In this document: positions 12,001-15,000 of the stretch, piece after piece
How positions within the stretch are numbered: the stretch's first letter is position 1
How the letters are laid out: every line of letters starts with the position of its first letter
Assembly (NCBI RefSeq): GCF_057098645.1
Contig: NZ_CM169472.1
DNA: 64,000 bases
Reading direction: 5' to 3' (one strand)
Position numbers: made by a program

Positions 12001-15000
12001 CAGCCAGTGCCCTTTTATTTTGTTCATTATTGATATCCCATGGATCACGCATATCTTTAATAAACCGCTCAAGCTCTGACTCAATATTCAGGCCAAAAAC
12101 TTTCGCCCTTAATTCCGCAATGTGATTAAGTCCATTCAGGCGTTCACCGGGGCTTAATGGAACAGTCGCCGCAGTGCCTTCAATAGCCATTTGTTCCCCC
12201 GTTTTTTCGTAGATAGTTCTGCCAGCAATTCATCTTGTGAACGGCACGGATGCCAGCGTTTACCATCCTCACCCATGATCCAGCCGTGACCGTAGTGCAT
12301 TGCCGGGCTTTGTTTTACCAGCAGCGATGCAAATGATGGTTCTTTCGTCAGCATAAGCACCTCACAGCAAACCGAATGAAGCACCGAGGCCAGTCACGGT
12401 ATCAACTGCACTCGCCATCGCAGGATTAGCCTGTAAACGGGCCTGCAATGAAACAGCCGCCAGCGCCATCAGTCGTGTTACAGAGTTAATGCTGCTGATA
12501 GCATCACGACGACCGGCACAGGTTTTTACATCGCCAGATACCGCACCTGCAGCAACACGCCCGATCTCTGCGGTTGCACTCATGACGTAATGTGGCAGTT
12601 TCTCTTTTGCCACCTCATTAATCGGTACACATGGCAGACAATGAATCTGTGCCAGAAAACCATCTACCAGCGTTGAATCTTCAGTCAGATCGGTAAGCAG
12701 CCAGATTTCTGGTGCGGTTAATAAATGAGGTTGAGCTGGGTTCAGCTTGTTCCGCAGAATCTGCACATTCATGCCAGCACGTTCTGCCAGTTGCACCAGG
12801 TTGTGGCGCAATGCGAATGCACGACAGGCTTCATCAAAATGTGGATGTTTGGAAACTTGGTAATCAAACATGGTCAATGCCTCTGATGTATCTCAGAATC
12901 GAACTAATTAAGGTTTAGATTGCATTCTGAAAGCGCATCAACGGTCATTGCTGCTATGTTGATCATCACTTTTTCGCGTTTTTTATCTTTGCGCAGACGG
13001 TGACGGATAAGGCGTCCATCAGCCAACATGTCATTGATGGTATCGATGGATAGCCCTGTCAGCTCGCTATAGCGTTCAATAGTCACATGAGGCGTGGTAA
13101 GAGTGATTGAAATGTTAGGTCTCATGATGCAACATTCCTCGTTTAATGATGATTAATCAGGACGAATACGGATCGTTTGTATTTTGTGAACACCATAAAC
13201 ATACGATCGCACAGTGAAATCTTCAAGATAAAAGTTCACTTGGAGTGACCATGAATTTGGAGAAAGGCGGACGAGGCGCTATAGAGCGCATGGTAGAAGC
13301 TTATGGATTCAAGACTCGACAGGCGTTGTGCGATCATTTAGGAATCTCTAAAAGTACACTCGCCACACGCTACATGCGTGACTCATTCCCAGCAGAATGG
13401 GTAATCCAGTGCGCCCTTGAAACAGGCACCTCGCTTAATTGGCTCACAACCGGGCATGGTTCAAAGCAAACTTCAGGTAATACAAATACTATGGAAGTTG
13501 CTAAATATGTATTATCTGATGGGGCCTTGTGTGAAGACGGTTTTTATATTTTCGATAGAGAATTTCTACCGTCGGCATTCAAGAATCTTTTTGTAATCAC
13601 AGATAATAATTCTGAATTTATTTGTGATAAGGAATTTGATGATATACGTGATGGTAAATGGGTAATAAGTATTGATGGCGAAATAACGATCCGTGACATT
13701 ACTCGTTTACCCGGTGGAAGAATCTTCGTCGAGGGTGGAAACAGAGCCTTCGAATGCAAGATAGAAGACATTGAAATAATTGGTAAAATTATAAGCTTAA
13801 CAGTCAAGTATGTTAAATAGTACCGGGAGGAAATTATGCTTGGTAAGGTATTTTTTGTGGTTTTGTCATGTTCTTTGTTATTAAACCCACTAGCTACCTA
13901 TGCTAGAAATTATCCCTGCTCAGGGAAAAAGGGAGGTGTTTCTCACTGTACCTCTGATGGCAAATTCGTTTGCAATGATGGAACTATTAGTAAATCCAAA
14001 AAAATCTGTACTAAAAACTCACGATAACTTTTGCTTTTATATCTGCGCCTAAAATAAAAATGAGCCACAGGTTAACCGCAAAAGTTACATGCTCACATAG
14101 CAAAAAGAATAGCCTACTTCATTATGGCTTCAGTGAGATGTATGGTCGCAGGATTTCATACATTGAAACTGGTTATACATACAGTAAAAATGCTCTCTAT
14201 TGGAGGGCATTTTTTATGGCTGTACGAAAACTCACCACAGGAAAATGGCTTTGCGAATGTTACCCCGCCGGACGTAGTGGGCGTCGTGTGCGTAAACAAT
14301 TCGCCACCAAAGGCGAAGCACTGGCTTTTGAGCGTCACACGATGGAAGAAACCGAAGCAAAGCCCTGGCTGGGTGAATCAGTGGATCGTCGAACACTGAA
14401 AGACGTGGTTGAGCTATGGTTCAAACTACATGGTAAATCACTGACTGCTGGGCAGCATGTCTATGACAAATTGCTGCTGATGGTTGACGCTCTGGGCAAT
14501 CCCCTTGCAACTGATCTCACATCTAAAATGTTTGCCCACTATCGAGATAAACGCCTGACAGGTGAGATCTACTTCAGCGAGAAATGGAAGAAAGGAGCAA
14601 GCCCGGTCACCATTAACCTGGAGCAAAGCTATCTAAGTAGTGTTTTTAGCGAACTATCCCGCCTGGGCGAATGGTCGTATCCGAACCCACTGGAGAACAT
14701 GCGAAAATTCACCATCGCAGAAAAAGAGATGGCATGGCTTACCCATGAGCAGATTGTTGAATTGCTGGCTGATTGCAAACGTCAGGACCCAATTCTGGCA
14801 CTGGTAGTTAAGATATGCTTAAGCACAGGCGCACGTTGGCGTGAAGCCGTAAATCTTACCCGCTCACAGGTGACCAAATACCGAATTACCTTTGTAAGAA
14901 CGAAGGGGAAGAAAAACAGAAGCATCCCTATCAGTAAAGAGCTTTACGAAGAGATCATGGCGCTTGATGGGTTCAATTTCTTTACAGACTGCTATTTTCA

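What the first reader, a model, noticed from the sequence alone, without database searches (positions are those of the whole stretch)
13836..14027. Small secreted cysteine-rich ORF between cI and int
In 186/P2 the repressor and int genes are close neighbours; here a 63-aa ORF with a signal-like N-terminus, five cysteines and a good RBS lies between them, co-oriented so that it would be expressed from the lysogenic transcript. It could be a lysogeny-expressed secreted peptide; it is short, so a chance ORF cannot be excluded.
Basis: inference. Interest (0 to 1): 0.3.

Follow-up and report, generated by a model that had tools for sequence, protein, structure and literature searches.

The report
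Prophage-borne YdcA-family periplasmic mini-protein gene
The small ORF between the prophage repressor and integrase genes is a real, strongly conserved gene for a tiny exported, disulfide-bonded protein of the uncharacterised YdcA family, and it sits in a cargo slot that in sibling prophages holds anti-phage defence genes.

Summary
The ORF (13836-14027, +, 63 aa) is exactly as described and is not a chance ORF. It passes the curated cutoff of NCBIfam NF007463 (PRK10040 group). The identical protein is listed under Pfam PF27300 "YdcA", and RefSeq names it "YdcA family protein". It occurs in about 11% of complete E. coli genomes. Purifying selection is strong: dN/dS is about 0.04 between the two main alleles, and the core stays nearly invariant where third codon positions are saturated.

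The product has a Sec signal peptide (predicted cleavage TYA|RN). The mature peptide is 40 aa, pI 9.7, with four invariant cysteines. The fifth cysteine lies in the signal peptide.

The gene lies 15 nt after cI, inside the 186-type lysogenic operon. Sibling prophages with about 96%-identical int DNA carry PD-lambda-1 in this slot, and others carry a YdcA-like gene plus a KAP NTPase (PDC-S20). Haemophilus phage HP2 has an unannotated homologue overlapping its cI stop codon.

Profile comparison (HHalign 97%) and Foldseek (top hit, prob 0.98) link the family to one lobe of Legionella Dis2, an outer-membrane-proximal Dot/Icm subunit. Function is unknown. My best guess (about 0.4) is a periplasmic entry-exclusion factor, with envelope-stress protection as the main rival. 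The gene is catalogued but uncharacterised, so interest is modest.

The parts
13251..13820 (+). cI immunity repressor (189 aa), first gene of the lysogenic operon
   Evidence: Pfam Phage_CI_repr E 2.8e-33 and Phage_CI_C E 2.7e-27. 33% identical to phage 186 CI, E 7e-38. RefSeq annotation 'phage repressor protein CI'.
13825..13830 (+). Shine-Dalgarno GGGAGG of ORF63, 5 nt before the ATG
   Evidence: Read directly from the sequence.
13836..14027 (+). ORF63, the YdcA-family gene (63 codons plus stop)
   Evidence: NF007463 scores 114.6 bits against a cutoff of 93. phrog_6000 E 3.1e-34. PF27300 is precomputed for the identical protein P0001. RefSeq WP_001513672.1 is named 'YdcA family protein'. dN/dS is 0.044.
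13836..13904 (+). Signal peptide coding part (residues 1-23, [23 protein letters not shown])
   Evidence: Hydropathy and n/h/c layout. Ala23 is invariant at -1 in 30 homologues, while the rest of the signal peptide diverges.
13905..14024 (+). Predicted mature peptide (residues 24-63; 40 aa, 4.29 kDa, pI 9.7, 9 K+R against 2 D+E, 4 Cys)
   Evidence: The core [29 protein letters not shown] has 15 invariant positions.
14028..14155 (.). Variable AT-rich spacer that travels with ORF63. Homology with prophages carrying other cargo resumes at about 14156.
   Evidence: 35% segregating sites among 80 collinear loci. Matches to the int module start at window 14156 in phages KP12 and 813R9. The same breakpoint appears in the roughly 528 E. 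coli genomes (1,119 minus 591) that have the int module without ORF63 just upstream.
14186..14214 (+). 13-bp hairpin (AAAAAUGCUCUCU-AUU-GGAGGGCAUUUUU) in the int leader. Its 3' arm contains the int SD GGAGGG (14202-14207) and it is followed by U and then the int ATG.
   Evidence: RNA fold of 14020-14240: MFE -58.3 kcal/mol, z -3.7. Nearly invariant among the loci. It belongs to the conserved int module. Its role as terminator or translational control is an inference.
14216..15247 (+). int, a tyrosine integrase (343 aa)
   Evidence: Pfam Int_N E 3e-32 and Phage_integrase E 6.8e-22. 55% identical to 186 Int, E 2e-140.

Best explanation
ORF63 is a real protein-coding cargo gene ('moron') of a 186-like P2-family prophage. 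It is a prophage-borne paralogue of E. coli ydcA (Pfam YdcA PF27300; NCBIfam NF007463).

Shown:
- It is inserted between cI and int, which abut in phage 186, with a strong RBS 15 nt after the cI stop.
- This slot is a cargo and defence hotspot.
- The protein carries a canonical Sec/SPase I signal peptide and a nearly invariant 35-residue core with four cysteines.
- It is under strong purifying selection.
- The core is homologous to one lobe of Legionella Dis2. In the Dot/Icm cryo-EM structure Dis2 is disulfide-pinned and docks on outer-membrane lipoproteins (DotK, DotC, DotD) just under the outer membrane.

Inferred:
- In lysogens it is transcribed with cI from pL, exported by Sec and cleaved after Ala23.
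- It is oxidised by DsbA to a 40-residue, +7-charged, two-disulfide mini-protein that stays in the periplasm.
- There it binds a component of the outer-membrane-proximal envelope that is conserved across Proteobacteria.

Most likely role (my commitment, about 0.4): an entry or superinfection-exclusion-type barrier against incoming foreign DNA (phage, possibly conjugative). This is analogous to, but not homologous with, the periplasmic Glo protein that Vibrio phage K139 encodes in the same cI-int slot.

Layered confidence: real YdcA-family gene >0.95; periplasmic export about 0.9; expression from the lysogenic operon about 0.8; exclusion role about 0.4.
For: Gene reality:
- NF007463 114.6 bits > 93; phrog_6000; 63 homologues, 57 of them listed with PF27300.
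- Window against the second major E. coli allele: 11 synonymous and 2 non-synonymous changes, dN/dS 0.044, core 8:0.
- Against deeper lineages, third codon positions are 38-41% identical while 31-33 of 34 core residues are identical.

Export: n/h/c layout, invariant Ala at -1, divergent signal peptides with an invariant mature part.

Operon:
- A 15-nt gap to cI with SD GGGAGG; the scan called no + strand terminator.
- 186 annotation of pL/pE -> cI -> int -> orf69 -> terminator.
- In HP2 the homologue's ATG overlaps the cI stop (TAATG), downstream of the annotated pL.
- L089, L093 and L094 also place it directly after a 186-type cI.

Hotspot:
- With about 96%-identical int DNA, the slot holds PD-lambda-1 (E 3e-120) in 813R9 and KP12.
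- It holds a YdcA-like gene plus a KAP NTPase, PDC-S20 (E 1e-171), in other lineages.
- 591 of the 1,119 E. coli genomes with this int carry ORF63.
- The literature notes cI-int and int-primase hotspots in P2-related phages.

Analogue: K139 has PL -> cI -> orf2 -> glo -> int, with glo annotated 'periplasmic protein; involved in phage exclusion'.

MGE spread: 527 viral contigs, 27 phage records and 58 plasmids including a 4-kb MOBQ plasmid.

Dis2 link: phmmer E 3.2e-5. Foldseek top hit with prob 0.98, next hit below 0.1. HHalign prob 97%, E 1.2e-10.
Against: - No expression, localisation or phenotype data exist for this gene. The pL promoter was not identified in the window.
- The exclusion role rests on position and analogy only. 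There is no PADLOC model hit and no homology to Glo.
- The mature domain is about 70-75% identical from E. coli to Moraxella and Haemophilus, and it has a chromosomal core paralogue. That is unusual for exclusion factors, which usually evolve fast.
- The only experimental data on a family member in E. coli point to stress. K-12/W ydcA is reported as acid-induced via YdcI, its deletion is 3-HP-sensitive, and there is an RpoS SELEX peak.
- In Moraxella phages the gene lies among tail genes, not in the lysogeny module.
Confidence: 0.4

Rival explanations
1. Envelope-stress protection (lysogenic conversion for host fitness). The prophage copy does the same job as chromosomal YdcA but is expressed constitutively from pL. 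A basic periplasmic mini-protein would bind and stabilise an anionic envelope component (outer-membrane inner leaflet, LPS or peptidoglycan) under acid or organic-acid stress.
For: - 72% identity of the mature domain to K-12 YdcA, in the same PRK10040 group.
- ydcA is reported as acid-induced under YdcI, and its deletion makes E. coli W sensitive to 3-hydroxypropionate (PMC7642389).
- There is an RpoS-holoenzyme SELEX peak at rydC<>ydcA (PMC5493296).
- Very high conservation fits a conserved, non-phage target.
- The mature peptide has pI 9.7 and net charge +7.
Against: - E. coli already has ydcA as a core gene, so the added benefit is unclear.
- The ydcA phenotype comes from one study, was overridden by a yieP deletion, and has no mechanism.
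- The gene's neighbours in prophages are defence genes, not stress genes.
- ORF63 fails the ydcA equivalog cutoff (68.5 bits against 118), so it is a distinct subfamily.
Confidence: 0.28
2. A periplasmic docking or accessory module with no defence or stress role. It would be a single Dis2-like lobe that attaches to an outer-membrane lipoprotein or secretin-type complex (for example a pilus, secretion or conjugation machine) and subtly tunes it, as Dis2 does for Dot/Icm.
For: - Homology to Dis2 lobes.
- Dis2 binds DotK, DotC and DotD near the outer membrane, and its loss changes translocation of some substrates only slightly.
- UniRef labels the protein 'Conjugal transfer protein'.
- It occurs on conjugative and mobilizable plasmids, and next to 'TraD' on pGFJ6.
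Against: - No T4SS or pilus genes lie in the prophage.
- YdcA has 4 Cys rather than 6, and one lobe rather than two.
- The UniRef name has no traceable evidence.
- Most carriers are phages or chromosomes without an adjacent secretion system.
Confidence: 0.15
3. An obligate partner of a neighbouring defence gene, for example a sensor or anchor for the KAP NTPase (PDC-S20). The window copy would then be an orphan remnant.
For: In L089, L093 and L094 the YdcA-like gene is immediately followed by a KAP NTPase. In L094 the stop and start overlap as TAATG.
Against: - In the window and in 591 E. coli genomes ORF63 stands alone, yet it is under strong purifying selection.
- PD-lambda-1 occupies the slot without a YdcA-like gene.
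- The family also occurs alone in chromosomes, plasmids and unrelated phages.
- A periplasmic peptide and a cytoplasmic NTPase are in different compartments.
Confidence: 0.05
4. A Sec-exported antimicrobial peptide or bacteriocin used against competitors.
For: It is small, cationic, Cys-rich and has a signal peptide. A YdcA-family gene was listed among loci associated with antimicrobial activity in Pseudomonas protegens.
Against: - There is no immunity or dedicated export gene next to it.
- A Sec signal delivers a protein only to the periplasm in Gram-negatives.
- It has a core-gene paralogue in every E. coli.
- The P. protegens mention is an association only, with the function described as poorly characterised.
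Confidence: 0.04
5. A lipoprotein-type exclusion factor (like Cor or Llp), lipidated at Cys12.
For: Cys12 is preceded by V-L-S, which loosely resembles a lipobox.
Against: - Cys12 is only 12 residues from the N-terminus, with a very short h-region before it.
- It is not conserved in the family. In sister alleles the -1 residue is I, V or F, which is incompatible with a lipobox.
- The invariant AxA-type site (Ala23) lies further downstream.
Confidence: 0.02
6. A chance ORF in AT-rich non-coding spacer.
For: The ORF is short (63 codons) and the region is AT-rich (36% GC).
Against: Curated HMM hits above cutoff, hundreds of homologues, dN/dS 0.04, and an amino-acid core conserved at synonymous saturation.
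Confidence: 0.01

Closest known systems
E. coli K-12 YdcA (core gene between cybB and hokB; Pfam PF27300 'YdcA'; NCBIfam NF007462)
   Same: Same family and architecture: a Sec signal peptide plus a roughly 35-residue basic four-Cys core. The mature domains are 72% identical. Both are of unknown function.
   Different: ORF63 belongs to a sister equivalog. It scores 114.6 bits on NF007463 but only 68.5 bits, against a cutoff of 118, on the ydcA model. It has a different signal peptide. It is prophage cargo in the lysogenic operon, not a chromosomal gene reported as acid- and YdcI-regulated.
Legionella pneumophila Dis2 (Lpg0823), outer-membrane-cap subunit of the Dot/Icm T4SS (PDB 7MUC/7MUD chain AN)
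   Same: The shared core motif is CSxxGG[VI]xxC...G[KR]xVCN[DN]G.xS. Support comes from HHalign prob 97% and E 1.2e-10, Foldseek top hit prob 0.98 and phmmer E 3.2e-5. Both are exported, disulfide-rich and outer-membrane-proximal in the periplasm.
Glo of Vibrio cholerae phage K139 (soluble periplasmic superinfection-exclusion protein)
   Same: Same place and logic: a signal-peptide protein encoded between cI and int of a P2-family phage, in the PL lysogenic operon. This is what ORF63 most plausibly works like.
   Different: There is no sequence similarity (BLASTP E 0.17). Glo is 137 aa and not Cys-rich. An exclusion phenotype for ORF63 is untested.
Defence cargo of the same slot: PD-lambda-1 and KAP NTPase PDC-S20 in sibling P2/186-like prophages
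   Same: They occupy the identical cI-int slot next to a closely related int module, about 96% identical in DNA for the PD-lambda-1 carriers.
   Different: They are large cytoplasmic NTPase-type proteins with PADLOC models. ORF63 is a 63-aa exported peptide with no PADLOC hit.
Moron-encoded envelope exclusion proteins (HK97 gp15, phi80/N15 Cor, T5 Llp, P1 Sim). These are named from my own knowledge and were not checked here.
   Same: They are small envelope-targeted proteins expressed from prophages that block DNA entry, and they sit in accessory slots.
   Different: They are membrane-anchored or lipoproteins (except Sim) and are unrelated in sequence as far as I know. None was compared here.

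Membership tests
YdcA family (Pfam PF27300; NCBIfam PRK10040 group) | Score above the curated cutoff of a family HMM | tested here: met
   NF007463 (PRK10040.1-2) scores 114.6 bits against a cutoff of 93, E 1.3e-33, over residues 5-63. PF27300 is precomputed for the identical protein P0001 and is named YdcA. The local Pfam copy lacks this model.
YdcA family (Pfam PF27300; NCBIfam PRK10040 group) | N-terminal Sec signal peptide with an SPase I site, followed by a single short domain (total 55-70 aa) | tested here: met
   n/h/c layout and invariant Ala at -1. The ORF is 63 aa.
YdcA family (Pfam PF27300; NCBIfam PRK10040 group) | Core motif PCSxxKGGxxxC..FxCxDGxxSxSKxxC with four invariant Cys | tested here: met
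   All 15 invariant positions are present.
Orthologue of E. coli K-12 ydcA (NF007462 equivalog) | Score above the equivalog cutoff (118 bits) and the chromosomal cybB-ydcA-hokB context | tested here: not met
   68.5 bits, below 118. The context is prophage, not cybB-hokB. It is therefore a paralogue, not ydcA itself.
Dis2 (Lpg0823)-lobe superfamily | Detectable homology of the domain | tested here: met
   HHalign of A2 against A3: prob 97.0, E 1.2e-10, 27 columns. phmmer E 3.2e-5. The mature-only profile against PDB is the top hit but at E 0.2.
Dis2 (Lpg0823)-lobe superfamily | Same three-dimensional fold | tested here: inconclusive
Dis2 (Lpg0823)-lobe superfamily | Six-Cys pattern CC...C...C...C.C (lobe 1), two-lobe architecture and T4SS association | tested here: not met
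   ORF63 has 4 Cys and a single lobe. No T4SS genes lie in the prophage.
K139 Glo-type periplasmic superinfection-exclusion protein | Encoded between cI and int in the lysogenic operon of a P2-family phage, with a signal peptide | tested here: met
   for ORF63; for K139.
K139 Glo-type periplasmic superinfection-exclusion protein | Sequence homology to Glo | tested here: not met
   BLASTP E 0.17, 7 of 30 identities.
K139 Glo-type periplasmic superinfection-exclusion protein | Blocks superinfection after adsorption | not testable with these tools
   This needs plating and DNA-entry assays.
Known anti-phage defence systems (PADLOC-DB v2) | Match to a defence-protein HMM | tested here: not met
   0 families at E<=0.01.
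Bacterial lipoproteins (Cor/Llp-type exclusion factors) | Conserved lipobox [LVI][ASTVI][GAS]C at the end of the signal peptide | tested here: not met
   Cys12 is not conserved. In sister alleles the -1 residue is I, V or F. The invariant SPase I-type site is at Ala23.
186-type lysogenic operon (context) | pL-proximal cI followed by int on the same strand, divergent from apl/cII | tested here: met
   cI, int and CII (Phage_CP76) have Pfam hits, and a 73-aa ORF sits in the apl position. Homology to 186 CI and Int is. The 186 map is. The pL promoter itself was not located.

The most novel reading that the evidence does not exclude
YdcA-family proteins would be a previously unrecognised class of ultra-small (about 4 kDa), soluble, disulfide-knotted periplasmic barrier factors. 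Each is a single Dis2-like lobe that docks on a conserved outer-membrane-proximal component, or binds incoming DNA directly through its +7 charge. In doing so it blocks entry of foreign DNA (phage injection, conjugation or natural transformation).

This would explain several observations:
- The family is carried by temperate phages and plasmids across alpha-, beta- and gamma-proteobacteria.
- It is notably frequent in phages of naturally competent hosts (Moraxella, Acinetobacter, Haemophilus).
- It sits beside defence genes, or beside a secreted nuclease.

It would also give a function to the E. coli y-gene ydcA and to the enigmatic Dis2.
Probability: 0.25. Interest if true: 0.65.

Novelty: new member of a known kind. 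Interest (0 to 1): 0.35.

Why it matters
- The gene sits in the lysogenic operon of a prophage type found in about 11% of complete E. coli genomes, so it is probably made in every such lysogen. Neither it nor its core-genome paralogue ydcA has a known function.
- The cI-int junction of 186-like prophages is a cargo slot shared with validated or candidate defence genes (PD-lambda-1, KAP NTPase). That makes this mini-protein a cheap, testable candidate for an envelope-level exclusion or conversion factor.
- The profile-level link to Legionella Dis2 is useful in both directions. It gives the YdcA family its only experimentally solved structural relative. It also shows that Dis2, described as Legionella-specific with no structural neighbours, is built from a domain that is widespread in bacteria.
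- As an entity, however, the gene is already catalogued (RefSeq 'YdcA family protein'). Small morons in lysogeny modules are expected, so the surprise value is moderate.

Tried and rejected
- Local Pfam copy: no real hit for ORF63 (only GULLO2-like_3rd at E 0.076), because the copy lacks PF27300.
- Pin-II protease-inhibitor similarity: six PDB sequences at E 0.2-1.8 disappeared with the family profile. I rejected it as Cys-composition noise.
- PADLOC: no model hits ORF63 or the 89-aa ORF.
- Homology to K139 Glo: none.
- Homology of the 89-aa ORF to 186 Orf69: none.
- BFVD Foldseek: nothing significant.
- afdb50: not available.
- Word-index search with a Dis2 fragment: found nothing (a wasted search). 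The exhaustive search replaced it.
- Rfam on 12800-15700: only a sub-threshold Phe_leader hit at E 0.48, treated as chance.
- Promoter scan: no + strand sigma-70 match upstream of cI or ORF63, so pL is not located.
- DUF3761 circular-permutation idea (C.DGTYS.S....G.CS.HGGV): this is from memory only. Pfam scans at E<=1 gave no DUF3761 hit, so it is left as an untested lead.
- The int pN/pS value is invalid. I used 14218 instead of 14216 as the start, and some loci have indels. It should be ignored.
- The low diversity of ORF63 is partly an ascertainment effect, because loci were chosen by protein similarity. The dN/dS, on the independent 93% allele, is the reliable figure.
- A pS near 1 looked like recoding. 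One search shows it is ordinary saturation, with third positions 38-41% identical.
- Primary K139 paper (PMC93736): not held. I relied on the GenBank annotation and two citing papers.
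Full report
OBSERVATION. An ATG at 13836 opens a 63-codon frame that ends with TAA at 14025-14027 on the + strand. It is preceded by GGGAGG (13825-13830), which ends 5 nt before the ATG. It begins 15 nt after the stop of cI (13251-13820). It ends 188 nt before int (14216-15247), and all three genes are co-oriented.
- cI has Pfam Phage_CI_repr and Phage_CI_C.
- The gene at 12362-12877 (-) is a CII (Phage_CP76).
- int has Int_N and Phage_integrase.
- cI is 33% identical to phage 186 CI (E 7e-38) and int is 55% identical to 186 Int (E 2e-140).
- In the 186 record cI and int overlap by one base. The annotated lysogenic operon runs pL/pE -> cI -> int -> orf69 -> terminator.

Relative to 186, the window therefore has ORF63 plus about 190 bp inserted inside that operon.

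IT IS A REAL GENE.
- ORF63 scores 114.6 bits (E 1.3e-33) on the NCBIfam equivalog NF007463 (PRK10040.1-2), above its curated cutoff of 93. It scores E 3e-34 on phrog_6000.
- The identical protein heads a cluster of 355 sequences seen on at least 1,000 contigs. It is listed with Pfam PF27300, which is the 'YdcA' family.
- Newer RefSeq annotations call it 'YdcA family protein', WP_001513672.1.
- Two common E. coli alleles differ at 13 of 189 nucleotides, with 11 synonymous and 2 non-synonymous changes. This gives dN/dS 0.044. Within the 32-codon core the ratio is 8:0.
- Against deeper prophage lineages (L089, L093, L094), third codon positions are only 38-41% identical, which is saturation. Yet 31-33 of 34 core residues are unchanged.

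The chance-ORF alternative is excluded.

THE PRODUCT. The N-terminus is a textbook Sec signal:
- n-region MLGK
- h-region [12 protein letters not shown]
- c-region NPLATYA, followed by RN

In an alignment of 30 family members the signal peptides diverge freely, but the Ala at -1 is invariant. The mature part is almost frozen as [14 protein letters not shown](2-3)[15 protein letters not shown], with 15 invariant positions including four cysteines.

It is not conserved, and in sister alleles it is preceded by I, V or F, so it is not a lipobox.

The predicted mature peptide is 40 residues, 4.29 kDa and pI 9.7. It has nine K+R against two D+E. AlphaFold2 models the core confidently, with pLDDT around 89-91 over residues 31-50, as a small beta-hairpin-containing knot. 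Export, cleavage after Ala23 and two DsbA-formed disulfides are inferences from sequence, not observations.

THE SLOT IS A CARGO AND DEFENCE HOTSPOT.
- Phages whose int DNA is 95.5-96.1% identical to the window's (Klebsiella phage KP12, Escherichia phage vB_EcoM-813R9) match only from window position about 14156 onward. Between their cI and int they carry a 558-aa protein, which is PD-lambda-1 (PADLOC E 3e-120).
- Other lineages carry a 186-type cI, then a YdcA-like gene, then a roughly 445-aa KAP-family NTPase (PADLOC PDC-S20, E 1e-171), then int. In L094 the stop and start overlap as TAATG.
- In 5,426 complete E. coli genomes, 1,119 have this int type and 591 of them have ORF63 directly upstream. 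The others lose homology at the same breakpoint.
- Counting the ORF alone, 627-647 genomes (about 11-12%) carry it.
- The gene is AT-rich, 36% GC against 48% for the window.
- The 128-bp spacer after it (14028-14155) is highly variable, with 35% segregating sites. ORF63 itself is an island of conservation (note the ascertainment caveat).
[quoted passage not shown] It also records minor P2 hotspots between integrase and primase, and between integrase and att (bioRxiv 10.64898/2026.02.27.708500).

WHERE ELSE THE FAMILY LIVES.
- Chromosomal ydcA of E. coli is a ubiquitous core gene in the order cybB-ydcA-hokB-trg-ydcI. My recalled sequence was verified as exact. It is a paralogue, 72% identical in the mature domain, and belongs to a different equivalog, NF007462. 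ORF63 scores 68.5 bits there against a cutoff of 118.
- Homologues occur in 27 deposited phage genomes: Moraxella Mcat phages, Acinetobacter phages, Haemophilus HP2 and S2, and Pseudomonas Y12.
- They occur in 527 IMG/VR contigs.
- They occur on 58 plasmids, mostly Acinetobacter and Rhizobium, including the 4-kb MOBQ plasmid pGFJ6.
- In HP2, a P2-family phage of Haemophilus, an unannotated 60-codon homologue starts with an ATG that overlaps the cI stop codon (TAATG). It lies downstream of the annotated pL and upstream of orf1 and int. This is the same slot in a distant relative.

Other contexts include:
- next to a P4-type integrase at a prophage end (L132, L133)
- downstream of an HTH repressor-like gene and a secreted staphylococcal-type nuclease (L193)
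- next to GemA in Mu-like elements (L140)
- among tail genes in Moraxella phage Mcat15

It therefore behaves as a free-standing moron, often but not always in the lysogeny module.

A DISTANT RELATIVE WITH A SOLVED STRUCTURE.
- A phmmer search of PDB sequences returned one significant hit (E 3.2e-5), chain AN of 7MUC, 7MUD and related entries. [quoted passage not shown]
- Part of that score came from the signal-peptide region. With a profile of the mature domain alone, Dis2 is still the top hit but at E 0.2.
- To test the link independently, I searched 1.84 billion representative proteins with the Dis2 lobe-1 fragment. It has 144 relatives at E<=1e-3. About a dozen are two-lobed Dis2-like proteins. 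Most of the other hits I inspected share the pattern 'signal peptide + GCCS[WH]HGG[VI]xYCDxSxGRxVCNDGTYSPxCxC', sometimes tandem or C-terminally anchored. No local Pfam model hits them.
- A profile of 28 such domains aligns to the YdcA mature-domain profile with HHalign probability 97% and E 1.2e-10 over 27 columns. The matches include non-cysteine positions, namely S, GG, V, G, VC, DG and S.

I conclude that YdcA is a divergent four-Cys, single-lobe branch of this superfamily. Two caveats apply. None of the 30 hits I inspected from the reciprocal search was itself YdcA-type. The structure-only test is inconclusive.

What is known of Dis2:
- It has two similar lobes pinned by five disulfides and lies just under the outer membrane.
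- It contacts the lipoproteins DotK, DotC and DotD, not the channel.
- Its deletion leaves the machine assembled and changes translocation of some substrates only slightly.
- That paper calls it Legionella-specific, which the present search contradicts at the domain level.

HOW IT MOST LIKELY WORKS.

Shown:
- a real, constrained gene
- a Sec/SPase I-type signal
- a basic four-Cys core
- placement with a strong RBS directly after cI in a 186-type lysogenic operon
- location in a slot shared with defence cargo
- homology to an outer-membrane-proximal, lipoprotein-docking, disulfide-pinned domain

Inferred:
- transcription with cI from pL in lysogens (the promoter itself was not found by the consensus scan)
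- export, cleavage and oxidation
- residence in the periplasm
- binding to a conserved envelope component, which is needed to explain about 70-75% identity of the mature domain from E. coli to Moraxella and Haemophilus

For the physiological role I commit, at about 0.4, to an entry or superinfection-exclusion-type barrier. Three observations support this:
- The slot's other occupants are defence genes.
- Vibrio phage K139 encodes in the very same cI-int position the soluble periplasmic exclusion protein Glo. Glo is an analogue, not a homologue.
- The family's spread over phages and plasmids is typical of conflict genes between mobile elements.

The main rival, at about 0.28, is envelope-stress protection. 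It is suggested by the only data on E. coli ydcA, which is reported as acid- and YdcI-induced, with a 3-hydroxypropionate-sensitive deletion and an RpoS SELEX peak. It is also suggested by the extreme conservation, which is atypical for exclusion factors. Minor rivals are:
- a neutral docking or accessory module, as Dis2 appears to be
- an obligate partner of the KAP NTPase
- a bacteriocin
- a lipoprotein

COMPARISON AND NOVELTY. Membership in the YdcA family is met on every tested criterion. Orthology to ydcA itself is not met, so ORF63 is a paralogous subfamily. Membership in the Dis2-lobe superfamily is met at the profile level. It is not met for Cys pattern, lobe number or T4SS association. 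'Works like Glo' is a positional and topological analogy only. The gene is already catalogued and named, so it is not a new kind of element. Three points were not found in any paper retrieved in my literature searches of the held library:
- The prophage subfamily occupies the cI-int hotspot of 186-like prophages, and the same slot in HP2.
- It is under very strong constraint.
- YdcA is related to Dis2.

I rate it 'new member of a known kind' with interest 0.35.

CAVEATS.
- The int pN/pS was computed out of frame and must be ignored.
- The 80 loci were selected by protein similarity.
- Statements about HK97 gp15, Cor, Llp, Sim, DUF3761 and the identity of IS1 InsA/InsB rest on my own knowledge and were not tested.
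- No expression or phenotype data were available.

Noticed in passing
window 14186-14214 (with 14163-14191): A 13-bp hairpin lies directly in front of int. Its 3' arm contains the int Shine-Dalgarno GGAGGG (14202-14207), and it is followed by a U-run and the int ATG at 14216. It looks like a terminator or translational lock on int for read-through transcripts from pL. A weak promoter-like site (TTGAAA-17-AAAAAT) overlaps its 5' arm, so transcripts starting there would lack the left arm and leave the SD free. The fold z-score is -3.7, and the hairpin is nearly invariant among the loci and part of the conserved int module.
   Followed up: partly
window 7417-10055: A 2,639-bp IS21-family element (IstB at 7516-8514 -, IstA-like transposase at 8288-9934 -) is inserted in the prophage replication gene A, relative to the intact E. 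coli HS prophage. The prophage is probably replication-defective while its lysogenic operon (cI-ORF63-int) is intact.
   Followed up: partly
window 2363-3129: A 768-bp IS1 copy (InsA and InsB ORFs) with a 9-bp target duplication interrupts the 463-aa hypothetical gene of the A-portal accessory hotspot. The hotspot proteins have no Pfam or PADLOC hits.
   Followed up: partly
window 15306-15575: An 89-aa ORF lies between int and the prophage end (homology to the HS prophage stops at about 15713). It has no significant Pfam hit and no PADLOC hit, and is not homologous to 186 Orf69, which occupies the same position. The int-att interval is reported as a minor P2 defence hotspot.
   Followed up: partly
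window 13788-13816 (- strand): There is a near-consensus sigma-70 promoter-like site (TTAACA-17-TATAAT, 11 of 12) at the cI/ORF63 junction, pointing antisense into the 3' end of cI. The region is AT-rich, so it may be chance.
   Followed up: no
L001 (Haemophilus phage HP2, NC_003315) 3444-3626; also phage S2: An unannotated 60-codon YdcA-family gene has an ATG that overlaps the cI stop codon (TAATG). It lies between cI and orf1/int and is missing from the deposited annotation.
   Followed up: yes
proteins P0079-P0222; PDB 7MUC chain AN: Dis2 of the Legionella Dot/Icm system is described as Legionella-specific with no structural neighbours. It is built from a domain with 144 significant relatives in an exhaustive search. 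Most of the hits I inspected are 'signal peptide + GCCS[WH]HGGVxYCD..GR.VCNDGTYSPxCxC' proteins, some tandem or membrane-anchored. No local Pfam model hits those tested.
   Followed up: partly
proteins P0056-P0058, P0060, P0062: Some family members of about 100-105 aa (P0056 is from Herbaspirillum; the others are from unnamed metagenome assemblies) carry a second Cys-rich C-terminal module (C.C....CTGPRGGKYC.....G.K.Y). This corresponds to NCBIfam NF007464.
   Followed up: no
L193 2084-2761; L089/L093/L094 3983-5529: YdcA-like genes are found immediately downstream of a secreted staphylococcal-type nuclease in one prophage lysogeny module. In others they lie immediately upstream of, and in L094 overlapping, a KAP NTPase (PDC-S20). 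These may be hints to function.
   Followed up: partly
window ~15713 onward: The same prophage (99.9% identical) lies next to rcdA in E. coli HS. In the window it is followed by the 3' end of an hchA-like gene and a sensor kinase. This indicates a different integration site or a rearrangement at the prophage end.
   Followed up: no
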